From positions 1 to 45,021 of IMG/VR virus record IMGVR_UViG_3300005805_003838: DNA of 45,021 nucleotides; one strand, 5' to 3'. Under the pieces are notes generated by a model. The model was not told where the DNA came from. It did not search any database and saw only the letters and a list, made by a program, of their open reading frames with translations. Of the stretch, positions 2,359 to 39,712 are shown piece after piece (the stretch's first letter is position 1; each line of letters starts with the position of its first letter). The stretch is from a virus (Duplodnaviria > Caudoviricetes). Made by a program: the position numbers and the translations under genes.

Positions 2359-2724
2359 TTATCCTCTTGATATTTTCAGCACAGCATCCAATTGACGCTG
2401 ACATATTTCTCTTCTGTTTGGCCAATGAATCCATTCTTTGTCTGCTGTCTTTAGTAGATTATTCAGCAGAGGAACTACGATAGCTTCTAGCTGTCGTATC
2501 TTTTCACGCATCTCGTCTTCTGTTGCTGATGCTGCAACGTTGTTGTGCATTCTACCAAACTCAATAAGAATACGATCTAATTTTTCGTCCATCGAATCAA
2601 ATCGATCGTCTAGGTCAATGTTTAAAGTAGATTGTTCTACTTGTGTAGGCTTTGCGAAATCTGGTTCGTCGACTGCGGAGAATCCGTAATCTGTGCCAAG
2701 ATATTCGGCTGGGACGTTAGTCAT
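2359..2724 (-). CDS. Hypothetical protein (conserved-type ORF downstream of gp43)
   Basis: ATGA overlap with the polymerase stop; DYGFSAVDE and PLLNNLLK..IHWPNR motifs. Confidence 0.75.
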   Translation of the reverse strand: MTNVPAEYLGTDYGFSAVDEPDFAKPTQVEQSTLNIDLDDRFDSMDEKLDRILIEFGRMHNNVAASATEDEMREKIRQLEAIVVPLLNNLLKTADKEWIHWPNRREICQRQLDAVLKISRG

Positions 2725-9097: not shown

Positions 9098-9409
9098 TCA
9101 CTTCAATCGTTTCACATTAGGACCAAAGATATATAGCGTCTTCTCGTGGAGTTCTTCTATAGAAACATCCTTGAAGAACTCCGTCCCACCATCACCATAG
9201 CGTTGACTTTCGAACACAGAATGTAGACGATTATCAGCCTTTCGCTTTATACTACCTATATCCCAGAGCCCGTAAATTTCCACAGGCTCTGGGTGCGATG
9301 TTTGGAAAGCGCGTTTCCGGCTTTCCAATTGCTTCTTCCCATCAGCTTCACCGATCTTGTATATACCGACGTTGAACTGAGAAGGAACAGCCATCACATA
9401 GATAAGCAT
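9098..9409 (-). CDS. T5orf172/GIY-YIG-like nuclease domain protein
   Basis: IYVM...YKIG...R..AFQTSHP...LH..F...GTEFF pattern; TAATG overlap with the upstream gene. Confidence 0.7.
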   Translation of the reverse strand: MLIYVMAVPSQFNVGIYKIGEADGKKQLESRKRAFQTSHPEPVEIYGLWDIGSIKRKADNRLHSVFESQRYGDGGTEFFKDVSIEELHEKTLYIFGPNVKRLK

Positions 9410-10341
9410 TATGCCGCGTCTTCCGCCTTCCACTCAAGGAATTCGTATGTCAAGTTCACTGAAGAAGTTTGCATGAACTTGGATATACGTTCTTGAGTCT
9501 TAGACTGGAGCTTTTTCACATCCTCATAGTTCTTAAAGTGAAAGATGATATGAGCCTTGGTGCAGCTACGTTCGATCATATTACCAATAGCTTTACCGAG
9601 AGTCTCGTAAATCTTATCCGTTGTCACGACGGCCCAAGTCACTTCAGTTTCATTAGTTTCGCGATCAACCTTGTGACCGTTCAGCTCGGCAACGGTATAC
9701 TGCTTGAAATGAAACTTCTTGTTCTGCATCGAAACGATAGAGTCCTGCTTCACTTTAGTCACAAGCTCACGGATCGTAGCCTTTTCCATCTGTGCAGCTT
9801 CGACCATCACTTCTTGATAATCATCATGATCAATATCTTTACCGTCGATCATGTCATTCATGATGAGATGTTTGATATCACCTTTAGTCATTCCGCGCAC
9901 AATCTTTTCTACGCGATTCATGATAGTACCAACGAGCTTCAGTACCTCAAGACGCTCTGCAGCTTCTGAGGGTAAAAGATCTTCTGAGATGATAGCGATA
10001 GGTGCAGTCTTAAGACCAGGAACGATCTTGCCGTTACGGATAACTTGCTCAAGAGCATGAGCAGTATGATTTCCGTTGATTAGGAAATAACCTTCGTCAT
10101 CTTCAATGACCAAGATAGGATCAGCGAAGTTGATATGCTTGAATACTTTAATCTTGTTCACAATCTCAGAAACGACTTCAACATGAACTTCGTTCTGCTT
10201 AACCTGAAGACGACGACCACTCTTGGTAATAAAGACCACGAGCTGATCACGATCAACCTGTTCATTCTTGAGCGATCCGCTACGATACAGCTTCACGATT
10301 TGCTCAGCCATAGCCAAGCACTTCTTATGCGAAATAGTCAT
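9409..10341 (-). CDS. ParB/Srx-like N-terminal domain protein
   Basis: DPILVIEDDEGYFLINGNHT resembles the ParB-N LIDGxHR motif; start placed at ATG 10341 by GGAG spacing. Confidence 0.55.
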   Translation of the reverse strand: MTISHKKCLAMAEQIVKLYRSGSLKNEQVDRDQLVVFITKSGRRLQVKQNEVHVEVVSEIVNKIKVFKHINFADPILVIEDDEGYFLINGNHTAHALEQVIRNGKIVPGLKTAPIAIISEDLLPSEAAERLEVLKLVGTIMNRVEKIVRGMTKGDIKHLIMNDMIDGKDIDHDDYQEVMVEAAQMEKATIRELVTKVKQDSIVSMQNKKFHFKQYTVAELNGHKVDRETNETEVTWAVVTTDKIYETLGKAIGNMIERSCTKAHIIFHFKNYEDVKKLQSKTQERISKFMQTSSVNLTYEFLEWKAEDAA

Positions 10342-10434
10342 TTTCATACTCCGAGTTTGGCAGACCCAAGGCTTCTGGCGCCTTTTCAAGTTTCTGCCGA
10401 TTAAGTGAGTCGAACCACTCGACTCACTATGATT

Positions 10435-12725: not shown

Positions 12726-13616
12726 TCATTTCCTCTTCTTGAGCTTCTGCTTCTGCTTCAACTTAGTCATATTTGGCATAGACGATTCATCAGCAGTAGC
12801 ACCAGCTCCGATTTGAGCAAGATCCATAAGAGATCCGCCAAACACATACGAACCAGTATGCTGCAACTTCATCCACGGACACAGCCAAACCTTAAGACCA
12901 ATCTCCTGAGCCTTTTGGCAGAACCAATAGTCTTCAGAAAGATATCGCTTTGACACAGGATCAACTTCAGCTTGGAAAGCCATCAAGATTTCGCGCGAAC
13001 CATCGAAGTGTTCCGTGCGAACGTGATCGGGCTTGTAGTAATATTGAGGGAACGAAGAAGCAAACTTCTCGAGTGAATCGCGACGGATCATCATGAATCC
13101 AGTGCCACCCTCAAGAACTTCTACTGGCTCATCGAGAGCAATAGATCCAGATCCTTCCTTCGGATTGAACACATAGTCGCCGACATACTTCTCTAGATTA
13201 GAAGGATCTTTATCAGCGAATCCCTTATCGACTGCACGCTTGATCTTTTCCCAAGCAATACATTTCTTAGGATAAGGTCCGCAAACAATATCCTTGTCTG
13301 TGTTTTCCTTAGCGATAACCGAAAGCGCGATAACATCGTTGGCATCAAATCCGATATCAGAATCGATGAACATCAGATGCGTGCAATCAGAACGCAGAAA
13401 CTCGTCTACGAGATAGTTTCGCGCACGAGTGATTAGTGATTCGTTGAACAGATAGAAGAATCTAACGTCCATTCCGTACTGAGCAGCCATTGCAGAAAGA
13501 TCTGCTGTAGACTTACAATACTGTCCGCCGCAGATTCCGCCGTACATAGGTGTCGCGATAAAAATCTTATTCTTACGCAAGTCTTCGATAGATACTGAAA
13601 TTTCAATAGAGGCCAT
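12726..13616 (-). CDS. GT-A fold glycosyltransferase-like protein
   Basis: IFIATPMYGG, NESLITRARN, FIDSDI (DxD), GTGFMMI and YLSEDYWFC motifs. Confidence 0.7.
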   Translation of the reverse strand: MASIEISVSIEDLRKNKIFIATPMYGGICGGQYCKSTADLSAMAAQYGMDVRFFYLFNESLITRARNYLVDEFLRSDCTHLMFIDSDIGFDANDVIALSVIAKENTDKDIVCGPYPKKCIAWEKIKRAVDKGFADKDPSNLEKYVGDYVFNPKEGSGSIALDEPVEVLEGGTGFMMIRRDSLEKFASSFPQYYYKPDHVRTEHFDGSREILMAFQAEVDPVSKRYLSEDYWFCQKAQEIGLKVWLCPWMKLQHTGSYVFGGSLMDLAQIGAGATADESSMPNMTKLKQKQKLKKRK

Positions 13617-13655: not shown

Positions 13656-13895
13656 TCAGAGCATTTCTTTGATTTCAGCTTGCTTTTTTTTCCAACGAAG
13701 AACTGCTTGCTGATGATTCAGTCGACGCTTGATTGATGGCTTCGTATAATGCTCACGATCAGCCAAGTCTCGCAAAAGATTTTCTCGCTGGATTTTCTTC
13801 TTCAATACACGAAGAGCACCATTGACGTCATTGTTTCGAACAGTAACATAAATGCCCTTGAGAGATTCCCAGGGCTCACGATTATCGATAGACAA
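13656..13895 (-). CDS. rpsU: 30S ribosomal protein bS21 homolog
   Basis: VTVRNNDVNGALRVLKKKIQRE..L..L..REHYTKPSIKRR matches the S21 signature; TTG start after GGAG. Confidence 0.88.
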   Translation of the reverse strand: MSIDNREPWESLKGIYVTVRNNDVNGALRVLKKKIQRENLLRDLADREHYTKPSIKRRLNHQQAVLRWKKKQAEIKEML

Positions 13896-19398: not shown

Positions 19399-20091
19399 TT
19401 ACGATCGTAACGTACCCTTTAACGCAATGAATCCAGTAAAGGCATGATTCTGCCAGAACGAATCGACGGCTACGAATCCAGCTTCCTCGCACATATCTAT
19501 GATTTCTGTTCTTGTGCTAGGCTTGGTCATGTGGCGTAATTGTTTTTCCTTATCCATGATGTCGTCAGTCGTAAATGACCCGCGCTTGAAATCGTAATAG
19601 GTGAATGTGCGCATTTCGTGTATACGAACATTCTCGGGCATTGTTTTTTCAGCGAAGACGAATGCGCCCCCAGGAGTCAAACCTCTATACACATTCTTGA
19701 TGACTTCTTGACGATCAGCATGAGACATGAACTGCAACGTGAAAATGCTCGTGACATACGAACAGTTGTAGAAACAATAGTTTAGGACGCTGCCCTTTTG
19801 ATATGTTAGTTGAGAAAAGTTGCTCTCGTCGTTTTCATATTCTCCCCAGAAATCTTCTTCGATCTCAATGCCTACGTAGTCGGCGTGAGGGGCAAACGTG
19901 TTCTGTGCAATCATACTCTTGAGCATCTTACCCGTGGAGCAACCAATGTCAGCAACAGTCGTATTATTTTCAACAAAATATTGACTGTAATCAACAACAT
20001 CTTGCCACAAATCACTGTATCCACGGATAGATGTATCAATGTGATTGTCGAATCCTTCTTCGCGTGTAGCGAACGTGAACTTACCTGTCAT
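19399..20091 (-). CDS. cmoA: CmoA-like carboxy-S-adenosylmethionine synthase
   Basis: FDNHIDTSIRGY, DIGCSTG, IFTLQF, GLTPGGAFVFAEK, YDFKR and AGF..FWQ..F..FIALK align with CmoA motifs (FPDMIQRSVPGY, DLGCSLG, NFTLQF, GLNPGGALVLSEK, HDFKR). Confidence 0.8.
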   Translation of the reverse strand: MTGKFTFATREEGFDNHIDTSIRGYSDLWQDVVDYSQYFVENNTTVADIGCSTGKMLKSMIAQNTFAPHADYVGIEIEEDFWGEYENDESNFSQLTYQKGSVLNYCFYNCSYVTSIFTLQFMSHADRQEVIKNVYRGLTPGGAFVFAEKTMPENVRIHEMRTFTYYDFKRGSFTTDDIMDKEKQLRHMTKPSTRTEIIDMCEEAGFVAVDSFWQNHAFTGFIALKGTLRS

Positions 20092-21229
20092 TCTGTAATT
20101 CCTTATATGGCTTCAATATGTTTTCGTAGATCGAAGTAGCAAGAGCGCACATCATCTTTGGCGCAACCATACGACCAATACGTTCAGCCTGCTGATCAAA
20201 CGTTCCAGTCAATTCATAATCATCAGGAAGACTCATTATACGCTTCATTTCTTTAATTGTCAATTTCCTATTTGCAGCATAGTGCATTACACCAGATGCA
20301 GAACGTTGCTGACCCATCTGCGTAAGAGTAGGGCATGGCTTATTGGGTGCAGGACGCTTCATGTTGAAGCAAGACAACTTTCCGTTGACTAGTCCTGGCT
20401 TCAGCGTCTTCGTAGGATTAAACGCCATAGTCTCTACGAATTTCTTTTGGAAACTGTTTTCGCACGAGTCTAGCAACATCTGAACTTCTTCAGGATCGTT
20501 ATCGATCCCTTCGATCGCGCTCGCGATACTTACTCCCTGAGATGTGCTCATCATAGGATAGATCTTTCCAGCAAGTTGATACTCCTCGAATCCCAAAGCA
20601 TCGAACACATCATTCCTCACCCCCACGAAAAATGTTCTCATGCGACTCTGAGGAACTCCGAACTTAGAAGCGTTCAGGACTTGGTATACCATCTTATATC
20701 CTGGAGTAACACGTTCAAAACCTGTTACGAAATCACGGAGCTTCTCGATAGCTGAGCGAGATGTAATCCCTTCTACGTTTTCTGCGATGATGATCTTTGG
20801 TTGAATGTCTTCAGCAATACGAATATACTCAAGGAATAGGTCCTCGATATTCTTTACTGTCTTGCCGTCAGAATATTTCTTTTCTCGATTCCATCCCTTC
20901 TTACCTTTACCAGAAGAAGAAAAAGCAGAACACGGAGGAGATCCATCAAGGATATCAAGATCTCTCCGAACAAGATTACCAGCAATCAACAAATCTTTAC
21001 CAGTGATAGCCTTGATATCTCCCAGGATTACTTTCGTATCTGGGAAGTTGCGTGAATATGTTGCGACTGCTTCCTCAACGAACTCGTTGATCGCAACAAC
21101 TTTTCCTCCAGCCAACCTATATCCAGTTGAAGAACCGCCACCACCAGCAAATGTCGATACAACCGTGAACAACTCACGAGCAGAAGAACGCTTAACATCT
21201 TCAACAGTATATGGTTGATAACTATTCAT
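20081..21229 (-). CDS. C5 DNA cytosine methyltransferase-family enzyme, predicted carboxymethyltransferase
   Basis: Motif I FAGGGG, IV GSPPC, VI ENV, VIII PQSRMR and IX RKLT..E..RIMSLPD; motif X reads GRMV instead of GNxV. Confidence 0.9.
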   Translation of the reverse strand: MNSYQPYTVEDVKRSSARELFTVVSTFAGGGGSSTGYRLAGGKVVAINEFVEEAVATYSRNFPDTKVILGDIKAITGKDLLIAGNLVRRDLDILDGSPPCSAFSSSGKGKKGWNREKKYSDGKTVKNIEDLFLEYIRIAEDIQPKIIIAENVEGITSRSAIEKLRDFVTGFERVTPGYKMVYQVLNASKFGVPQSRMRTFFVGVRNDVFDALGFEEYQLAGKIYPMMSTSQGVSIASAIEGIDNDPEEVQMLLDSCENSFQKKFVETMAFNPTKTLKPGLVNGKLSCFNMKRPAPNKPCPTLTQMGQQRSASGVMHYAANRKLTIKEMKRIMSLPDDYELTGTFDQQAERIGRMVAPKMMCALATSIYENILKPYKELQNDR

Positions 21230-23647: not shown

Positions 23648-24702
23648 GTTTCCATATGAAGAGCTTCAGTATATAACGAACGCATCAATTTGTCAAGATC
23701 ATTATTATCAACATTAGACTCAATCGTGCTGATGTAGCGCGATAAGATCGTTAGTGTATCTTCTGTTTCATCCAAAAGTTCAGCCTCGTCAATTATATCC
23801 ATGTTACGATGATCCTCGACAATGATCACTTCAATAGGCAAAGCTTCGTAAAGTTTGCTTGTGAACAAATCGAAATTAAAAGGATTATCCTTGTTCGACA
23901 CAATGAGCTTCACATAAGATCCTGTGTATTTATCCCAGTCTCTATCAAGAAGTTCTTCTGTCGTCGTATCTTTATCATTATACCACATCTTACGAAACAT
24001 ACGATATGGATTTTCTATGAACGAAAGCTCACGAGTTTCCGTATCCAAGATATGGAATCCTTTAGGGTCATCGTAGTCGCTCCAAGTAAACTCAGCATGG
24101 CTACCAAGATAATGAATGTTGCCACTAGTAGAGCGGTGATGATAGTGACCAGAGCAAACCAAATCGAACCGATTAAATAAACTGCGATCGTCTCCATGAC
24201 TGATCGGACTACCGCGATACATTTCGAAGCCTGCAAGTTCAAGGTGACCCATACAGATTTGAGCATTGGTATTCCTTATTGATTCTAAAGCATGTTCACG
24301 ATTGTCGTCACATATCCACGGCATGAATAGAATAGGTGTATGATCAAAGGTTACTGTTGTTGCTTCTTCATGAATGATGAAATCGTTTTCATAAAACTCA
24401 CGAATAGAATTCACAGAGTTAGTGTTCTTGTAGTACGTATCATGATTACCGATGATCAGATGGGCGCAGATACCTCTTTCATGAAGAGGTTTAATAAAAT
24501 CACTTCTAAGACGTTTAGCTGTATTGATATTAAGATACTTACGACGATCAACCAAATCGCCAAGATGAACAACAGTATTAATGCTATTAGTATCAAGATA
24601 TCTAAAGAAAACTTCATCTAGAAACTTCTTGTTGTTATCAAGAAAAGCAACTTGATCATTGCGAACGCCCCAATGTGTATCTGTAATCAATGCAATTTTC
24701 AT
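23644..24702 (-). CDS. 47: Recombination endonuclease subunit gp47 (Mre11/SbcD-like)
   Basis: TDTHWG, LGDLVD, GNHD, GHLE and SGHYH metallophosphoesterase motifs. Confidence 0.97.
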   Translation of the reverse strand: MKIALITDTHWGVRNDQVAFLDNNKKFLDEVFFRYLDTNSINTVVHLGDLVDRRKYLNINTAKRLRSDFIKPLHERGICAHLIIGNHDTYYKNTNSVNSIREFYENDFIIHEEATTVTFDHTPILFMPWICDDNREHALESIRNTNAQICMGHLELAGFEMYRGSPISHGDDRSLFNRFDLVCSGHYHHRSTSGNIHYLGSHAEFTWSDYDDPKGFHILDTETRELSFIENPYRMFRKMWYNDKDTTTEELLDRDWDKYTGSYVKLIVSNKDNPFNFDLFTSKLYEALPIEVIIVEDHRNMDIIDEAELLDETEDTLTILSRYISTIESNVDNNDLDKLMRSLYTEALHMET

Positions 24703-32771: not shown

Positions 32772-33929
32772 ATGAATATTGGATTGATTGGTGATCATAT
32801 ATCTGATATATATGTGTACGGAAAAGTTGAAAGAATTTCTCCAGAATCTCCAGCTCCTATTTTTACACATATTCGAACAGAATTGCGTCCAGGCGGGGCA
32901 GGAAACGTCAGAGAAAATTTAAAATCTCTGGGGGCTGAAGTAACATATTATCGTGATCACGTTTCAAGTTTAAAAACTAGATACGTTTGTGATAATCATA
33001 TTATCTTTCGCTCAGATGAAGATGAATTCGTAAACAATGAAAAGACCGTTTACGAATTCGACGATTCAGTCGAATATGTTATACTCAGTGACTATAACAA
33101 AGGATATATTTCAAACCCTTTTAAAACTATACAACAATTAATTGTTGATGGTAAAACTGTAATTGTAGATCCTAAGAAACATTTAAGTAATTATGCTGGA
33201 TCTTCAATCATCAAACTTAACGAAAAAGAATACGCCAGTTATGCGGACGATTTAGAATACACATTAGCAGCCAAAAAATATGTCACTCGCGCGCTCGTGA
33301 TCACGCGAGCGAACAAGAGTACGATAATCGCAACTTCCGAAACAGTAACAGAAATAGAAACACAAGAACATCAAGTCGCGGATGTAACTGGTGCTGGTGA
33401 TGTATTTATAGCAGCTATGACTTACTATCTAGCCAGCGGTGATTCTTTAGAATCAGCGGTTAAGAAAGCTAACAAGTTAGCCTCAATATCGGTAACTAAA
33501 TTCGGAACCTATGTGCTAACTAAAAACGACATCGAATCCATTAATTGCTCCGTTGTATTCACGAACGGGTGCTTCGATATAATCCACAGAGGACATATCG
33601 AGTATCTTAAGAGATCAAGAGCGTTAGGGAATAGGTTAGTCGTTGGGATCAATTCGGACGCAAGCATTCGAAGATTAAAAGGTTTGTGTAGACCTTTCAC
33701 CAAGCAAGAAGATCGTAAGGCTATATTAGAATCGATGAGTTTCGTTGATGAAGTCATTATATTTAACGAAGATACTCCATATGAACTCATAAAACAAGTA
33801 CAGCCAAACATAATAACTAAAGGCGGAGATTATCTCGCAGAGAATGTTGTAGGAAAAGATTTAGCTGAAGTCGTAATAATTCCTTACATCAATGGGTATT
33901 CAACCACAAAAATTATGGGAAACACATGA
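32772..33929 (+). CDS. hldE: Bifunctional heptose 7-phosphate kinase / heptose 1-phosphate adenylyltransferase
   Basis: RISPESPAP, GGAGNV, LSDYNKG and DVTGAGD (PfkB kinase) plus FTNGCFDIIHRGH, KGGDY and GYSTT (nucleotidyltransferase). Confidence 0.93.
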   Translation: MNIGLIGDHISDIYVYGKVERISPESPAPIFTHIRTELRPGGAGNVRENLKSLGAEVTYYRDHVSSLKTRYVCDNHIIFRSDEDEFVNNEKTVYEFDDSVEYVILSDYNKGYISNPFKTIQQLIVDGKTVIVDPKKHLSNYAGSSIIKLNEKEYASYADDLEYTLAAKKYVTRALVITRANKSTIIATSETVTEIETQEHQVADVTGAGDVFIAAMTYYLASGDSLESAVKKANKLASISVTKFGTYVLTKNDIESINCSVVFTNGCFDIIHRGHIEYLKRSRALGNRLVVGINSDASIRRLKGLCRPFTKQEDRKAILESMSFVDEVIIFNEDTPYELIKQVQPNIITKGGDYLAENVVGKDLAEVVIIPYINGYSTTKIMGNT

Positions 33930-34282
33930 ATAATATTGTTGAGAAAGGTTGGGGTCGCGAAATCATATTCGTCAATAACGATATGTACTGCGGCAAGCTT
34001 CTTTGTTTTGATAAAGCTGGTTCAAAAGGTAGTATGCACTTTCACGGCAAAAAGACTGAAACGTGGTACGTTCAGTCTGGTAGATTTTGCGTATGGTATA
34101 TCAATCCCAGCGACGCATCTAGATGTTTCGAAATACTGAACATTGGTGATATATGGACTAATGAAGTTTGTGAACCTCATCAACTAGAAGCATTAGAAGA
34201 CGATTCTGTGATATTTGAAGTATCTACACCAGACGATCCTAAAGATAGCTATCGTATAGAAAAAGGAGATAGCCAATCATGA
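33926..34282 (+). CDS. Cupin-domain sugar isomerase-like protein
   Basis: KGWGRE, SMHFH.KK.ETW, PHQL and EVST..D..DSYR motifs. Confidence 0.8.
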   Translation: MNNIVEKGWGREIIFVNNDMYCGKLLCFDKAGSKGSMHFHGKKTETWYVQSGRFCVWYINPSDASRCFEILNIGDIWTNEVCEPHQLEALEDDSVIFEVSTPDDPKDSYRIEKGDSQS

Positions 34283-34593
34283 AATATATGATTGATATTG
34301 ATGGTACGATATGCACGACAACAATCAACGGTAATTATGAATATGCAGAGCCATTCACTAACAGAATAAAACATTTCAATTCTTTATATGATCAGGGGCA
34401 TGAAATTAATTACTGGACTGCTCGTGGAGGAACCACCAATAAAGATTGGTCCGAATTAACCAAAAAACAATTAGAAAAATGGAAAGTTAAATATACAAGC
34501 GTCAGTTTTAAAAAGCCATCATATGATATTTGGATTGATGATAAAGCGCATAATGTAGAGAGTTATTTTAATGATATTATTAACAGGGTCTAA
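34279..34593 (+). CDS. HAD-family phosphatase (possible heptose bisphosphate phosphatase role)
   Basis: DIDGTI, WTARG and KP..D.WIDDKA motifs. Confidence 0.8.
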   Translation: MKYMIDIDGTICTTTINGNYEYAEPFTNRIKHFNSLYDQGHEINYWTARGGTTNKDWSELTKKQLEKWKVKYTSVSFKKPSYDIWIDDKAHNVESYFNDIINRV

Positions 34594-35353
34594 AGGGTTT
34601 ATTGGGTCTCAATTGATCGATCATTTTTATGACATAGAAATCGATATCTATGAGATTGAACAAGAACAATGCTTCTTTTATTTAAATGCTACACCTTGGG
34701 AAAGAGTGACTAAAATTTATCATCTAGGAGCCATCTCTTCTACCACTGAAACCAATATTGATTTGATATATCGTCACAATATAGACTTCTCGATTAAGCT
34801 ATTTGAAAAAGCTATTGAATATAAAATACCAGTTGTATACGCTTCTTCTGCATCTGTTTATGGTAATAGTACTGAAGCTTCTATACAACCGCTCAATTAC
34901 TATTCTATGTCAAAAGCCACAGTTGATATATTTGTGTCGGATAATATGCACAGATTTGCAAATATTGTTGGGTGCAGATTTTTTAATGTATATGGAAAAG
35001 GTGAAGATCATAAAGGTAGTCAGGCAAGCCCAATTCATCAATTTACTAAACAGGCAAAAGAGACTGGTGTCATTAAGATATTTACAGGATCAGAACATTA
35101 TTATAGAGATTTTGTTTGGGTAGAAGACTGTATTAATTTTATGCTAAAAGAAAGAACTAGCGGGATCTATGATGTTGGTACTGGATTGCCTGTATCATTT
35201 AGAGAAGTGGCTGAATGTGTTGCTAAAAAATATAACGCAAGTATAGAAGAGATACCTTTCCCTAAACATCTGATGGAAAAATATCAATACTATACTTGCG
35301 CTAATAGTTTTAGAGAAGATTTTATTTCAGTCCGAGACTATCTCGAATCTTAG
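34571..35353 (+). CDS. hldD: ADP-L-glycero-D-manno-heptose 6-epimerase
   Basis: TGSKGFIG, HLGAISSTTE, YASSASVYG, Y..SK, RFFNVYG.GE.HKG, RDFV.V.D and YQYYTCA motifs. Confidence 0.9.
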   Translation: MILLTGSKGFIGSQLIDHFYDIEIDIYEIEQEQCFFYLNATPWERVTKIYHLGAISSTTETNIDLIYRHNIDFSIKLFEKAIEYKIPVVYASSASVYGNSTEASIQPLNYYSMSKATVDIFVSDNMHRFANIVGCRFFNVYGKGEDHKGSQASPIHQFTKQAKETGVIKIFTGSEHYYRDFVWVEDCINFMLKERTSGIYDVGTGLPVSFREVAECVAKKYNASIEEIPFPKHLMEKYQYYTCANSFREDFISVRDYLES

Positions 35354-36125
35354 TGGCTGAGATATTATGGATAACTTCATCAAACACTTCCTGTTCAATC
35401 TTGTATCCAACGTCACGTCCGTAAGTAATATTCACGATGTTAGGTACAACTTGAACAGTATACTTTCCGTAGAACTTTGGACCAAGAGCCTTATGAATTC
35501 GCTCTTCTACATCAGCAATATCAAACGGATTACTGTTGTTCCAGTCCTGACAATCACGAATCATAATACATACCTGCCCCGTCTTGGCTAATGCTCGTTC
35601 AAATAATGCTTGATGTCCATCGTGCCACGGTTGCCAACGTCCAAGCATCTGAACAGTAGGCTTACGAGGATCAAATTGTTCTGGCTTTTCTATATTAATA
35701 ATATCATCAACAATGCGTTTAGCCCATTCTTTTGCATTGAAGCTTGTGATACGATAATCATATTTTGAAGGAGCTTCAAACATTTTATTTGTGTCTTCGT
35801 ATCGTCCCTTCTTAATAGTATCCATCCAGATAATATAATCTGCTGTACCACCTTCCGAAAAGATATTTCTTAGCTTTTCTGTAGGACAAATGAACTCGCA
35901 GATAGAAAAGATTCCCAGATTCTTATCTTCGTTGCCGTACTTACCCATACGTTCAGCCTGACGTATGCGACCGGCTTCTGAAAAATCCCAATCATCAAAA
36001 AGCTTACGTACCGAATCGGCATTGTGCCAATTCACAGCTTGATTTCTTGACATGAACTCATCATACATTTCTTGAGCAAGTGTTGTCTTGCCTGAACCCG
36101 GTAATCCCATAATCAAGATTTTCAT
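35322..36125 (-). CDS. cysC: Adenylylsulfate kinase fused to a cytidylyltransferase-like domain
   Basis: MGLPGSGKTT, DWDFS..GRIRQA and FEAP (APS kinase) plus GRWQPWHDGH and ISATKIR (HIGH-type NTase). Confidence 0.8.
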   Translation of the reverse strand: MKILIMGLPGSGKTTLAQEMYDEFMSRNQAVNWHNADSVRKLFDDWDFSEAGRIRQAERMGKYGNEDKNLGIFSICEFICPTEKLRNIFSEGGTADYIIWMDTIKKGRYEDTNKMFEAPSKYDYRITSFNAKEWAKRIVDDIINIEKPEQFDPRKPTVQMLGRWQPWHDGHQALFERALAKTGQVCIMIRDCQDWNNSNPFDIADVEERIHKALGPKFYGKYTVQVVPNIVNITYGRDVGYKIEQEVFDEVIHNISATKIRDSLGLK

Positions 36126-36707
36126 TTATTTCTCCATAGGTATATTAAAAGCAATAGAAATGCGTGTTGAGCTAGTCATGTTCCTATGCACCATATGATC
36201 AACAAAGGAGGGAAACAAAATCATTCTTCCTGTCTTTGGTTGATATCGATGAGGTGATTTTAATTGTGTATTTAATCCTTGCCACATATCTTTTTGTTTG
36301 GCTGGTTCATTGAATTGAATATCCCCAGAATTAGGCATAGCCTGAACATAATATACTCCAGATATAAAATTACCAAAGTGGTTATGTTCAGCTTCATAGT
36401 TGCCTGGCTGAAAATAATTAATCCATGAATCTACTCTCATGAATTCTAACTTGCGCCCATACAAGTTAGCATACTGTTTTACTACAGAATAGATTTCTTC
36501 ACGCAGTAAATTGAGTTTAATCTCAGTCAAAATATCATGATATGTATGATAAGACGTATTGAGGTTTTCTCCGTTACTATACTCCACATACTTCTTATAG
36601 CCATCCGTCGTTTCCCATTGTCGAACTGACATAATAGTCTTTTCTACTATGCTATGATCGACATCGTGTACGCCAAATAGAGTAGGAAATAGTGAATCAA
36701 CTTGCAT
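36126..36707 (-). CDS. 2OG-Fe(II) oxygenase (TIGR02466-like)
   Basis: SWIN, HNH..ISGVYYV, LFPSFVDHMV and RISIAFN motifs. Confidence 0.85.
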   Translation of the reverse strand: MQVDSLFPTLFGVHDVDHSIVEKTIMSVRQWETTDGYKKYVEYSNGENLNTSYHTYHDILTEIKLNLLREEIYSVVKQYANLYGRKLEFMRVDSWINYFQPGNYEAEHNHFGNFISGVYYVQAMPNSGDIQFNEPAKQKDMWQGLNTQLKSPHRYQPKTGRMILFPSFVDHMVHRNMTSSTRISIAFNIPMEK

Positions 36708-38052
36708 TCATTTGCTCCATAATCAATTCTCGCGCTCGCGTGAGAGGTTCTTTCCAACTACGTAACTTTGACTGTTTTAGCACACTCAGATTGTCACCGT
36801 ACCAAGGTGTCGTTTCGTTTGTCCTTGTAGAAGTCCAGATATAGTATTCTGCAATAGGAACACATACGATTGCTCGTTTCCCCATTGCTCCAGCAACATG
36901 TACTAGACTTGTGCATGAAGAAACAATTATATCCATCTGGTCTACAAAGTCAAGAGTATCTTCCCAACTCTTTATTCTGTTCTTGAGTGATATGCTACCA
37001 TCATATTCTTTTTCTGTGTCGATATAATACACAGAAGCATTCTCAGGTATAATATCCATCACCTGATCATATGGTATTCTACGATAGACATCCTGTTCAA
37101 AGTGAGGATTGCCATTTACCTTGATACCAATCTTGAACTTCTTGTCGTCTAGTTTGTTCTTTTCTTGACGCAAAGGTTTCAGATATGGTCCATTCCACAA
37201 TTGATTTTCTTTTAGACCCAGATATCCCGGCAAACTCATCATGTGTGTCCACAGAGCATCTTTTGGAAAGAACAAATAATTAGTCGTTACTTCATATCCA
37301 TGTCTTCTGAACAGCCCAACTAAATCTGGACGATACATATGCCAAGAAGAATACAGGATAGGATTCATTCCCAGTGCTTTTAGATTATCCAAGAATCGAA
37401 GATTGATAAGTTCATCACCAATCCCGCCTTCGCCATTTATGATAATAGTCTTACCCGGATATGCTCCACCATCCCAAAACTTTAGTTTCAGAACATCCTC
37501 AAACAAAGAATTCTTTTTCTTAAAGGTATTAATAAAACGATCAATACCCTTTGATGTATGTCCTTGTCTTAGATACTTACCACACAATGCAAAGTCGAGT
37601 GATTGTTCCTCTGATGCTCTTTTACCCTCTGCAATCAGCTTCTCGATAATTTCTTCTGCTTCTTGCTTCTTGCCCATCAAAGAAAGATTAAATGCTTTTT
37701 GTGATAGTGTGTCTACATCATCAGGGTTAATCAAAAGATTAAGATTGATGTAATGCAATGCTTTTTCTGGATAGTTATTTAAGTTATAAGCCTTGTATAG
37801 ATTTTCTCTGGCAATGTACAACTGCTCTGATGTACGCATCATTGAATAACATATCTCTGCACACTTGAGATACAGTTCTGCATACTTAACTTCGAGTGCT
37901 GCTCGCCCCACAGATTCATATTCTTGCATTGTCTTAGCAAGCGAGAACACTTCATCCAATAGAATAAGCGCAGTTTTCCTGCGCTCATCTGAAGTCAGTT
38001 TCTTTATTACGAAAAGTAAAGGATCAGTTTCCTTTTGAACCACCTCAGTCAT
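36697..38052 (-). CDS. TPR-repeat protein fused to a GT9-like (heptosyltransferase-type) glycosyltransferase
   Basis: Helical TPR N-terminus; WDG...GEGGIGDEL..LRF, MSLP and DIIVSSCTSLVHVAGAMGK motifs. Confidence 0.8.
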   Translation of the reverse strand: MTEVVQKETDPLLFVIKKLTSDERRKTALILLDEVFSLAKTMQEYESVGRAALEVKYAELYLKCAEICYSMMRTSEQLYIARENLYKAYNLNNYPEKALHYINLNLLINPDDVDTLSQKAFNLSLMGKKQEAEEIIEKLIAEGKRASEEQSLDFALCGKYLRQGHTSKGIDRFINTFKKKNSLFEDVLKLKFWDGGAYPGKTIIINGEGGIGDELINLRFLDNLKALGMNPILYSSWHMYRPDLVGLFRRHGYEVTTNYLFFPKDALWTHMMSLPGYLGLKENQLWNGPYLKPLRQEKNKLDDKKFKIGIKVNGNPHFEQDVYRRIPYDQVMDIIPENASVYYIDTEKEYDGSISLKNRIKSWEDTLDFVDQMDIIVSSCTSLVHVAGAMGKRAIVCVPIAEYYIWTSTRTNETTPWYGDNLSVLKQSKLRSWKEPLTRARELIMEQMNAS

Positions 38053-38611
38053 TTTTAATAGCCACCATACGGATATGATATTCCATTACAATGTTATTAT
38101 GTTCATGGATATATCTTTTAGCCTGTTCCATTTGCATTCCCTCAAATGCTTTCATATACATTGGATCAGGAATTTCATTAACGTCAACAACCTCAAAGTC
38201 AACTTTAAAATAATATCCCAATCGTGATGCAGCTGCGTTCTGCTCCCTACATGCATCATTGTACTTACGACTAAACAACGCTAATCCATCAGGAGTGATT
38301 GGACGACGATGAGTAGGATCGTTTAGATAGTAATCATGTCTTGGATGAGGAACACGAATATCGATCAATGCTCCATGCTTACATACACGATACACTTCTT
38401 GCAAGCAATGAAAGTATCCTTCACCCATATGTTCGAATACGTGATGAGCGATAACTTGCTCTACCGTATTATCTTCAAAAGGAAACTTATCCTTTTCCAT
38501 ATCAAAGATATGCTCTGCGCCTGTTCTTGCGTCATAATCGCAGTTAACAAATCCATCAAATCGTGTATCACCAGCACCTAAATTAATCTTCATGTTGTAC
38601 TCACTTTTCAA
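38045..38611 (-). CDS. Class I SAM-dependent methyltransferase
   Basis: INLGAG..GFVNCD, HVFEH, EVYRVCK.G and DPTH motifs. Confidence 0.85.
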   Translation of the reverse strand: MKSEYNMKINLGAGDTRFDGFVNCDYDARTGAEHIFDMEKDKFPFEDNTVEQVIAHHVFEHMGEGYFHCLQEVYRVCKHGALIDIRVPHPRHDYYLNDPTHRRPITPDGLALFSRKYNDACREQNAAASRLGYYFKVDFEVVDVNEIPDPMYMKAFEGMQMEQAKRYIHEHNNIVMEYHIRMVAIKND

Positions 38612-38948
38612 ATTGATTTTCTATTTTAGGATGATGCCCCTTACGACAATCGAACTGCCTACAGGCTAAAGGACGATCATTATAAATCTTGCATCGTTTA
38701 TCTGCACCAAAGTATATGCAACCCGTCTCGATACGAGGGATAGCTATCACAGGCACATTTGGATTTGCTGGATTTTCCATAAAAGTAAATATGTACTTAC
38801 CAGATTTCATTTCTCGCTCAGTGAGATACGGAGAAAGAATTTCACAACAAAGAGTGCATCCTATCTTAGTACAAGGAACATCGGACTCTTCGATATCACG
38901 CTCAATGGTGATAGCCTTGATATCATGTGTAACAAATTTCATTACCAA
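38601..38948 (-). CDS. YkgJ-family Cys-cluster (Zn/Fe-chelating) protein
   Basis: C...GC.LCC, CIYF...CKIYNDRPLACRQFDC. Confidence 0.85.
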   Translation of the reverse strand: MVMKFVTHDIKAITIERDIEESDVPCTKIGCTLCCEILSPYLTEREMKSGKYIFTFMENPANPNVPVIAIPRIETGCIYFGADKRCKIYNDRPLACRQFDCRKGHHPKIENQFEK

Positions 38949-39712
38949 ACCTTAAGATTATCAAACTCCGCCCAAAGATCAGGAGGCATTATTGGCTCAC
39001 GTTCTATATATTGTACTTCTTTTCTTATCTTGTGTAAACCATTAATTCCAGCTTCTGCATCATATTCGTCCCACGAAGCCTCTACGTTATTGAAATCGTG
39101 ATCAAAATAGGGTTCTCCAATAAAATTATAGAGGGCTCGCATTGTTTGTTCTGGATGTTTGGCTAATTGCTCATAATCCAGAAGCATAATGCTTTTCTTT
39201 TGTGGTCCGGTCATAGCTTCTTTTAATGAGTCATATGCAAATCTGACTGTACTACCGGGAGACATAAGAGAATATGTTCGTGTGTATACTGACTGAGCTT
39301 CTTCTTCACCATACAATTGTGACATAGTAAATGGATTTTTTCGAAAAAGAACTTCAAACGAATCTAGCACCCAACGGATATCACGAACGCAACAGATGAT
39401 TTTTGCATCTGGATTTGTGCGTTCTAATATGGGGAGTAGACCTGTCCATCCACGATTTGTATTGAAACATACTTGTTGTGGGATGTGCGAGTGATATGTT
39501 TCTATAAGATTTTGAATAAGCTCAAAACGCTTGTCTTCAGGGCATTGTAAATGATATCCCGGTCCCGCATGAGATTCGGTTACAATTCTTCTAACAAATC
39601 TAGCCAAAGGATTAGAGATGTTAGAATAGAATTCAGGATTCTGATTAAGAATTGATGTAAGAAGAGTTGACCCTGAACGGGGCAACCCAGAAATAAAATG
39701 ATATTTTTTCAT
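38942..39712 (-). CDS. Sulfotransferase
   Basis: SGLPRSGSTLL (5'-PSB), VRD...LDS (3'-PB) and YEQL..HP...LYNFIG. Confidence 0.88.
   Translation of the reverse strand: MKKYHFISGLPRSGSTLLTSILNQNPEFYSNISNPLARFVRRIVTESHAGPGYHLQCPEDKRFELIQNLIETYHSHIPQQVCFNTNRGWTGLLPILERTNPDAKIICCVRDIRWVLDSFEVLFRKNPFTMSQLYGEEEAQSVYTRTYSLMSPGSTVRFAYDSLKEAMTGPQKKSIMLLDYEQLAKHPEQTMRALYNFIGEPYFDHDFNNVEASWDEYDAEAGINGLHKIRKEVQYIEREPIMPPDLWAEFDNLKVW

What the first reader, a model, noticed from the sequence alone, without database searches (positions are those of the whole stretch)
19399..21229. CmoA-like carboxy-SAM synthase coupled to a C5 DNA methyltransferase with Asn-to-Arg in motif X: predicted 5-carboxymethylcytosine DNA modification
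Seen: two overlapping genes. The first has all C5-MTase catalytic motifs (FAGGGG, PPC, ENV, QxRxR), but motif X reads IGRMV (Arg codon at 20171-20173) where canonical enzymes have GN(A/S)V. The second matches CmoA along its length, and no cmoB-like tRNA enzyme is present in the window. Established: CmoA converts SAM plus prephenate to carboxy-SAM, and replacing this motif-X Asn with Lys in M.MpeI (N374K) or Dcm (N436K) turns them into Cx-SAM-using DNA carboxymethyltransferases. Inference: the phage makes its own Cx-SAM and writes 5-carboxymethylcytosine into its DNA, likely as anti-restriction or as a handle for hypermodification. Caveats: the CmoA catalytic Arg region (QKRSML in E. coli) reads DKEKQLR here, so an Arg is shifted. 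I also recall a comparable pair reported from a cyanophage, so the chemistry may not be wholly new, though target site and host here are unknown.
Basis: partly seen in the sequence, partly recalled or inferred. Interest (0 to 1): 0.92.

Follow-up and report, generated by a model that had tools for sequence, protein, structure and literature searches.

The report
Phage CmoX-CmoA DNA carboxymethylation cassette
Two overlapping genes of an uncultured T4-like phage are clear relatives of enzymes shown in 2025 to make carboxy-SAM and attach carboxymethyl groups to DNA cytosines, so they very likely do the same here, which makes this one more example of a published system and not a discovery.

Summary
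Observation confirmed; the chemistry was deduced correctly but is published. The 382-aa gene (20081-21229, minus) is 48.8% identical to CmoX of Synechococcus phage S-B43 (PDB 8YF3; Yang et al., Nat Commun 2025, PMC12783734). All nine residues that paper names map unchanged, and Arg353 (codon 20171-20173) equals the Cx-SAM-binding Arg350. One proposed test is likely wrong: S-B43 R350N was inactive with both cofactors. New details only: the glycine ligase CmoY is absent from this 45-kb fragment and from the slot behind DNA polymerase where 2 of 3 mapped close relatives carry it; the cassette occupies a swappable slot (11 of 18 informative relatives have cmoX); cmoA likely has its own early promoter inside cmoX. 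The target may not be GC, because GC is not depleted here (1.19 versus 0.38 in S-B43). My CC-target idea failed its control. This scan has already noted the same system on other phage DNA.

The parts
20081..21229 (-). cmoX: C5-cytosine carboxymethyltransferase ortholog, 382 aa
   Evidence: 48.8% (177/363) to S-B43 CmoX; F27, E49, F50, D71, S97-P98-P99-C100 and R353 map onto F25, E47, F48, D69, S95-C98 and R350; phmmer to 8YF3 E 1.4e-98; AlphaFold model pLDDT 86, best Foldseek hit 8YF3, E 1.7e-37, TM 0.81/0.93
20171..20173 (-). Motif X Arg353 codon (CGT), equivalent to the carboxylate-binding Arg350 of SpCmoX and Asn304 of M.HhaI
20291..20332 (-). PTL motif and following segment, likely a DNA-recognition loop (role recalled from C5-MTase anatomy, not tested); about 7 residues longer than in SpCmoX
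   Evidence: alignment; coordinates
19399..20091 (-). cmoA: carboxy-SAM synthase ortholog, 230 aa, start overlapping the end of cmoX by 11 bases
   Evidence: 51.1% (115/225) to S-B43 CmoA, 56.0% to S-CRM01; K181, E182 and R186 in 120 of 120 listed homologs
20235..20263 (-). Perfect sigma-70 consensus (TTGACA-17-TATAAT) inside cmoX, 144 bases upstream of the cmoA start; likely an early promoter for cmoA
   Evidence: 12/12 match; -35 box 6/6 and -10 box 5-6/6 in 9 of 9 close-allele relatives while spacer codons vary; same pattern as 16 other TTGACA-N17-TANNNT sites in the window; no transcript evidence
23668..23696 (-). 11/12 sigma-70 consensus at the end of gp47; likely promoter reading through gp46, peptide deformylase, cmoX and cmoA
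   Evidence: inference only
2721..2724 (-). Empty cmoY slot: DNA polymerase (gp43) stop overlaps the start of the next gene; close relatives G002 and G005 carry cmoY exactly here

Best explanation
The two genes are orthologs of the published phage CmoX and CmoA and very likely write 5-carboxymethylcytosine into the phage's own DNA, probably as a shield against host restriction enzymes. Shown here: the sequence anatomy, the orthology, the fold match and the gene linkage. Inferred from the S-B43 enzymes: CmoA converts host SAM plus prephenate to carboxy-SAM; CmoX attacks C6 of a target cytosine with Cys100, holds the cofactor's carboxylate with Arg353 and transfers the carboxymethyl group to C5, releasing SAH. 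Inferred from promoter-like sites: cmoA is likely expressed early from its own promoter inside cmoX, building the cofactor pool. With CmoY missing from its usual slot in this lineage, the mark more likely stays as bare 5cxmC than becomes the glycine amide. The target motif is unknown and may differ from the GC of S-B43.
For: All 9 residues named in PMC12783734 map unchanged. The paper's own membership rule (SPPC plus R350) is met. 8YF3 is the top hit by sequence (E 1.4e-98 against 3.6e-19 for the next) and by structure. CmoA is 51% identical to the enzyme with measured kcat 2.33/s. Linkage: of 31 IMG/VR loci with a relative of this protein, 30 show GRMV (1 is cut before the motif) and 29 have cmoA beside it (2 end at the contig border). 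Negative control: the Melnitz phage methyltransferase is 46% identical but has Leu at this position, and Methylophilales phages are not among the named organism groups of the 68 phage records with a cmoA match. In 7 relatives without cmoX, the same slot holds other genes: a DruA-family pair in 6 (Pfam run on 2 of them) and a TET-associated glycosyltransferase plus methyltransferase in 1. The glycosyltransferase case fits a slot for interchangeable DNA-modification modules.
Against: No activity was measured for these two proteins. The variable region is only 35% identical to SpCmoX (37/105). The CmoA score is below the NCBIfam equivalog cut-offs. Several E. coli cofactor contacts differ: D89 to E76, N90 to I77, D117 to S101, N132 to I116, R199 to E182, though SpCmoA has the same or a similar change at each (E76, L77, N107, L122, E188). 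Engineered K/R mutants of M.CviPI still use SAM, so some 5mC is possible. The genome is about three quarters missing if it resembles its 140-160 kb relatives. Protection from restriction was shown only in vitro for HhaI with SpCmoX.
Confidence: 0.9

Rival explanations
1. Same first two steps, but the mark is further converted (glycine amide or another adduct) by a ligase in the unsequenced part of this genome. This differs from the best explanation only in the end product.
For: Native S-B43 DNA held only the glycine amide, not bare 5cxmC. CmoY lies about 16 kb from cmoX in relatives G002 and G005 (53% and 51% to SpCmoY), so distant ligases occur. 17 of 31 related loci have cmoY within the stretch fetched. 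The window is a fragment.
Against: The CmoY slot between gp43 and the next gene is empty in the window. The closest relative G001 (CmoX 90% identical, 139 kb, 78% complete) has no PF00733 or SpCmoY match and no amide ligase among 86 further ORFs scanned. The complete S-CRM01 genome has no SpCmoY match (PF00733 itself was not run on it).
Confidence: 0.25
2. The enzyme is mainly or partly an ordinary 5-methylcytosine methyltransferase that tolerates Arg, and 5mC feeds a TET-type oxygenase.
For: Engineered Lys/Arg variants keep SAM activity. Relatives G001 and G002 carry a TET/JBP oxygenase, G001 with a TET-associated glycosyltransferase nearby, and CmoX is the only C5-methyltransferase found on either contig.
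Against: Wild-type SpCmoX accepted only Cx-SAM. Tight linkage to cmoA (29 of 31 loci) makes little sense for a plain methylase. Phage TET/JBP enzymes that oxidise thymine and travel with glycosyltransferases are described (PMC13229309, passages), which would explain the oxygenase without 5mC.
Confidence: 0.06
3. CmoA serves another purpose (draining host SAM to blunt SAM-dependent defence, or feeding host tRNA modification), and the neighbouring transferase is incidental or inactive.
For: cmoA likely has its own perfect promoter. PMC12783734 raises SAM depletion as an open possibility.
Against: cmoX is intact, with its catalytic motifs invariant across 14 aligned homologs. In the fully read slots the two genes come and go together, and 0 of 5 cmoX-less relatives searched have cmoA elsewhere on their contigs (one 93% complete, four 14-31%; no positive control).
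Confidence: 0.04

Closest known systems
CmoA-CmoX-CmoY system of Synechococcus phage S-B43 (Yang et al., Nat Commun 2025, PMC12783734; PDB 8YF3)
   Same: CmoX 48.8% and CmoA 51.1% identical; all named cofactor and catalytic residues, including Arg350, and the same Arg position in CmoA; T4-like phage; no CmoB seen
   Different: Gene order is cmoX then cmoA, with no cmoY between or in the window; longer loop after the PTL motif and 35% identity in the variable region; no GC depletion in the genome; nothing points to a cyanobacterial host
cmoA-cmoX pair of Synechococcus phage S-CRM01 (NC_015569)
   Same: Overlapping pair, GRMV motif, no SpCmoY match in the genome
   Different: Opposite gene order; different genomic slot; GC depleted (0.53); not biochemically tested in the paper read
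E. coli CmoA (PDB 4GEK/4IWN; PMC3663124)
   Same: Same family; Y39, D62, G64, S66, F137, E164, K165 and K198 kept
   Different: About 29% identical; Arg199/Glu203 appear as Glu182/Arg186, one helical turn apart; its partner is the tRNA enzyme CmoB, not a DNA enzyme
Engineered carboxymethyltransferases M.MpeI N374K and M.CviPI Y205K/R (PMC13288465)
   Same: A cationic residue at the motif X position admits Cx-SAM
   Different: Man-made; the M.CviPI variants still use SAM; CpG or GpC targets

Membership tests
CmoX (phage DNA cytosine C5-carboxymethyltransferase) | SPPC catalytic motif (S95-C98 of SpCmoX) | tested here: met
   S97-P98-P99-C100
CmoX (phage DNA cytosine C5-carboxymethyltransferase) | Arg at the position of SpCmoX R350 | tested here: met
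   R353 by alignment; model matches 8YF3 at TM 0.81/0.93, side-chain position not inspected
CmoX (phage DNA cytosine C5-carboxymethyltransferase) | Cofactor contacts F25, E47, F48, D69 | tested here: met
   F27, E49, F50, D71
CmoX (phage DNA cytosine C5-carboxymethyltransferase) | cmoA in the gene neighbourhood | tested here: met
   overlapping gene
CmoX (phage DNA cytosine C5-carboxymethyltransferase) | Forms 5cxm-dC from Cx-SAM and not 5mC from SAM | not testable with these tools
   needs LC-MS
CmoX (phage DNA cytosine C5-carboxymethyltransferase) | GC target motif (property of SpCmoX, not shown for the whole family) | tested here: inconclusive
   GC at codon junctions is 1.19 of expected here against 0.38 in S-B43, but the cassette is mobile, so no footprint need exist
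CmoA (Cx-SAM synthase), bacterial equivalog | Score above NCBIfam TIGR00740 / NF011995 cut-offs | tested here: not met
   89.3 of 193.3 and 76.8 of 285 bits, still the two best models
CmoA (Cx-SAM synthase), bacterial equivalog | Arg199 salt bridge to the carboxymethyl group | tested here: not met
   Aligned residue is E182; an invariant R186 lies four residues on, in the same predicted helix 175-186 (low confidence, pLDDT about 60)
Phage CmoA of the SpCmoA type (activity proven) | Full-length orthology and the K-E-x-x-L-R motif of SpCmoA | tested here: met
   51.1% over 225 positions; DKEKQLR versus DKEKELR; K181, E182 and R186 in 120 of 120 listed homologs
Phage CmoA of the SpCmoA type (activity proven) | Makes Cx-SAM from SAM and prephenate | not testable with these tools
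   needs enzyme assay
Full CmoA-CmoX-CmoY glycyl-carboxymethylcytosine pathway | CmoY / asparagine-synthetase-like amide ligase in the genome | tested here: inconclusive
   No match in the 45-kb window, syntenic slot empty; rest of the genome not available
Canonical 5mC DNA methyltransferase (Dcm/HhaI type) | Asn in motif X | tested here: not met
   Arg353

The most novel reading that the evidence does not exclude
This lineage makes bare 5-carboxymethylcytosine as the final base in its virion DNA, which the S-B43 paper did not find in native DNA, and does so at a motif other than GC. The cmoX slot would then be a natural library of carboxymethyltransferases with different targets: beside the window's allele, relatives carry alleles only 54-61% identical at the same slot, and other phages carry tandem paralogs.
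Probability: 0.35. Interest if true: 0.4.

Novelty: new member of a known kind. Interest (0 to 1): 0.14.

Why it matters
The chemistry is real and striking but was published in December 2025, with 5,615 candidate CmoX sequences already counted. The value left is modest. Natural carboxymethyltransferases with targets other than GC or CpG would be useful for base-resolution sequencing and footprinting, where engineered ones are in use. A ligase-less phage would test whether bare 5cxmC is itself a final natural base. The swappable slot shows phages exchanging whole modules at one locus, at least some of them DNA-modifying.

Tried and rejected
(1) Reading the target motif from composition. CC and GG are depleted at codon junctions in the window (0.56, 0.74) and relatives G001, G002, G005 (CC 0.49-0.54) while GC is not, which suggested a CC target. 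Rejected: 6 of 7 close relatives without cmoX show nearly the same CC depletion (0.58-0.67; the seventh 0.97), against 0.45-0.59 in 7 with the window's allele and 0.60-0.90 in 4 with other alleles. It tracks lineage, not cassette. GC depletion is also not specific to CmoX: Melnitz, with a Leu-type enzyme, shows 0.58 on 9 kb. (2) A phage enzyme supplying prephenate: the DAHP-synthase-family gene in G001 is KdsA (349 bits, above cut-off), so rejected. (3) The 326-aa ORF at 9409-10389 as a substitute modifier: it is ParB-like, 10 kb away, with no link shown. (4) Host from the phage rpS21 gene: no relative found in genome contigs. The capsid protein is at most 66% identical to cultured phages. Host unknown. 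(5) Whether close relatives are in the paper's candidate list: six IMG sample numbers were not found in its four supplementary files; those files may not list contig names, so this says nothing. (6) Locating CmoA Arg186 against the ligand: the model gave only helix limits at low confidence; I ran no fold search on it. (7) No tRNA genes in the window.

Full report
OBSERVATION. The window is a 45,021-base virus record with no more genome held. It carries T4-like core genes: gp43, gp44, gp45, gp46, gp47, gp55, UvsW, gp23 and others. Two minus-strand ORFs lie behind gp46 and a peptide deformylase: 20081-21229 (382 aa) and 19399-20091 (230 aa), overlapping by 11 bases. The first matches PF00145 (E 8e-53) and has FAGGGG, SPPC, ENV, QSRMR and IGRMV; codon 20171-20173 is CGT, Arg353. 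The second has CmoA models as its two best NCBIfam hits, below their cut-offs, and aligns to E. coli CmoA 4GEK over residues 3-226.

IT IS A PUBLISHED SYSTEM. A literature search gave Yang et al., Nat Commun 2025, PMC12783734. I read parts 1-4 of 8 of the text (abstract, results, discussion, part of methods), further passages and part 1 of 2 of supplement 1. It shows for Synechococcus phage S-B43 that CmoA makes Cx-SAM (kcat 2.33/s against 0.23/s for E. coli), that CmoX carboxymethylates cytosine in GC, accepts only Cx-SAM and protects DNA from HhaI, and that Arg350 contacts the carboxylate. R350N is inactive with both cofactors. CmoY ligates glycine, and native phage DNA holds the glycine amide but not bare 5cxmC. 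The authors count 5,615 CmoX candidates (rule: SPPC plus R350), 4,257 CmoA and 2,251 ligases, and leave the targets of other members open. A whole-word search for CmoX from 2024 on gave 4 papers, of which only this one is on topic.

ORTHOLOGY. The window protein hits 8YF3 (SpCmoX) at E 1.4e-98, against 3.6e-19 for the next structure. Against the S-B43 genes it is 48.8% identical (177/363), and all nine named residues map unchanged, including R350 to R353. Identity is 54% in motifs I-VIII, 55% in IX-X and 35% in the variable region. An AlphaFold model (pLDDT 86) has 8YF3 as top Foldseek hit (E 1.7e-37, TM 0.81/0.93). The CmoA is 51.1% identical to SpCmoA and 56.0% to that of S-CRM01.

THE CMOA CAVEAT. 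E. coli Arg199 salt-bridges the carboxymethyl group (PMC3663124, passages). It aligns with E182 here, and E. coli E203 aligns with R186. Proven SpCmoA has the same arrangement (E188, R192). K181, E182 and R186 are present in 120 of 120 listed homologs, the best 120 of 1,431 found, all 59% or more identical. CmoA of a Staphylococcus phage and a Jeotgalibacillus plasmid also have the Arg four residues on, while Pseudomonas phage PaBG and Ensifer keep the E. coli register. A model puts 175-186 in one helix, at low confidence. That R186 replaces R199 is an inference; that this arrangement is compatible with high activity is shown by SpCmoA.

LINKAGE. Of 31 IMG/VR loci with a relative, 30 show GRMV (one is cut short) and 29 have cmoA adjacent (two end at the contig border). 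These loci are partly redundant and related, so they are not 31 independent cases. Melnitz phage methyltransferase, 46% identical with Leu at the key position, has no cmoA annotated near it, and its genus is not among the named groups of the 68 cmoA-bearing phage records.

END PRODUCT. SpCmoY has no tblastn match in the window. Among close relatives (CmoX 87-90% identical), G002 and G005 carry cmoY (53% and 51% to SpCmoY) about 16 kb downstream, between gp43 and a small conserved gene. In the window and in G001 these two genes abut, and in the window the gp43 stop overlaps the next start. G001 (139 kb, 78% complete) has no PF00733 or SpCmoY match. A Pfam scan of 86 of its ORFs of 120 aa or more showed no amide ligase; the first 29.7 kb, two ORFs over 1,200 aa and ORFs crossing the 20-kb piece borders were left out. 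S-CRM01 also lacks a SpCmoY match. So bare 5cxmC is the likelier product here, but most of this genome is unseen.

A SWAPPABLE SLOT. A search with gp47 returned 80 loci (best 80 of 178), 36 at 75% identity or more. Eighteen of these extend over the slot behind the deformylase. Of those, 7 have the window's cmoX allele, 4 have other alleles (54-61% identical; one cut by the contig end), and 7 have no cmoX. In those 7 the slot holds a YunG-like plus DruA-family pair (6, by similar N-termini; Pfam on 2) or a TET-associated glycosyltransferase plus methyltransferase (1). Five of these contigs searched whole have neither cmoA nor a C5-methyltransferase; one is 93% complete, four are 14-31%.

EXPRESSION. 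A 12/12 sigma-70 consensus sits inside cmoX at 20263-20235, 144 bases before the cmoA start, and an 11/12 site precedes gp46. The internal site keeps TTGACA and 5-6 of 6 in the -10 box in 9 of 9 close-allele relatives, and is perfect in L018, L019 and L033. It is weaker in most other alleles and absent in S-B43 and S-CRM01. The coding sequence constrains part of it, and there are no transcript data, so an early cmoA promoter is likely but not shown.

TARGET MOTIF. With synonymous shuffling, GC at codon junctions is 0.38 of expected in 70 kb of S-B43 and 0.53 in 65 kb of S-CRM01, but 1.19-1.25 in the window and three relatives. CC and GG are low in this lineage, but relatives without cmoX show nearly the same, so a CC target is not supported. 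The lack of GC depletion and the longer loop after the PTL motif fit a different target, but a recently swapped cassette would leave no footprint either. The target is unknown.

SIDE ISSUE. G001 and G002 carry a TET/JBP oxygenase although CmoX is their only detected C5-methyltransferase. PMC13229309 (passages only) describes phage thymine dioxygenases that travel with glycosyltransferases, which is the simplest reading. PMC13288465 (passages) confirms M.MpeI N374K and shows that engineered M.CviPI K/R variants keep SAM activity, the basis for a small chance of mixed 5mC. PMC7496830 (passages) confirms that CmoA uses SAM and prephenate.

EARLIER NOTES. After reaching this reading I queried the scan's own notes: look-alike stretches lie in 14 windows of 10 genomes, and the 8 notes shown reach the same conclusion. 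They are not independent evidence and did not change the reading.

VERDICT. A real, intact CmoX-CmoA cassette, about 90% likely to make 5-carboxymethylcytosine in phage DNA; a new member of a system published in 2025. Remaining interest lies in the unknown target motif, the likely lack of the glycine step and the swappable slot. Interest 0.14.

Noticed in passing
L028-L032 (e.g. L029:10001-12980; G006:148650-150859): Two cmoX paralogs in tandem, both GRMV, with different loop sequences, between cmoY and cmoA.
   Followed up: partly
slot after peptide deformylase, window 19399-21229; L063, L064, L068, L073, L080, L084, L092, L077, L081, L086, L025: The slot is interchangeable among close relatives: window-type cmoX-cmoA (7), other cmoX alleles at 54-61% identity (4), a YunG-like plus DruA (PF14236) pair (6; Pfam run on L063 and L092), or a TET-associated glycosyltransferase plus methyltransferase (1). 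This hints that the phage DruA-family protein may itself be a DNA-modifying enzyme; untested.
   Followed up: partly
G001:118376-119776 (L055:18373-19776) and G002:116545-117924: Both near-complete relatives carry a TET/JBP oxygenase (in G001 with a nucleotidyltransferase, phosphatase and TAGT glycosyltransferase), although CmoX is their only detected C5-methyltransferase. It is most likely a thymine-oxidising type (PMC13229309), giving a second, parallel DNA modification; action on 5cxmC is not excluded.
   Followed up: partly
window 9409-10389 (-) and 9098-9433 (-): ParB-like 326-aa ORF plus a MUG113-domain ORF between gp44 and gp62; present in G001 (about 30% identity), not detected in G002 or G005, the two that have cmoY. 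Four genomes are too few to call this a pattern.
   Followed up: partly
window 32772-35353 (+) and 35322-39712 (-): Cluster of sugar and sulfate tailoring genes (PfkB kinase/cytidylyltransferase, epimerase, APS kinase, sulfotransferase, 2OG oxygenase, methyltransferase) followed by RCC1-repeat proteins; not detected in G001 or G002 apart from a weak 2OG match in G001.
   Followed up: no
window 13656-13895 (-): Phage-encoded ribosomal protein S21, conserved at 76-81% in relatives; no bacterial match found.
   Followed up: partly
window 12726-13616 (-): Conserved 296-aa protein (phrog_1574, unknown function) with a DxD motif that looks like a GT-A glycosyltransferase (recalled resemblance, not tested); 82-87% identical in relatives.
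   Followed up: no
L003:4010-5227 (Methylophilales phage Melnitz): CmoX-clade methyltransferase with Leu (GLMV) at the Arg position, no cmoA nearby, and GC depletion; neither the Asn nor the Arg type.
   Followed up: partly
L052:13097-18377 (G001): Curli-type CsgF/CsgG genes, FecR and a CHASE2-cyclase gene, and elsewhere kdsA, in the closest relative; suggests a Gram-negative host (inference).
   Followed up: no
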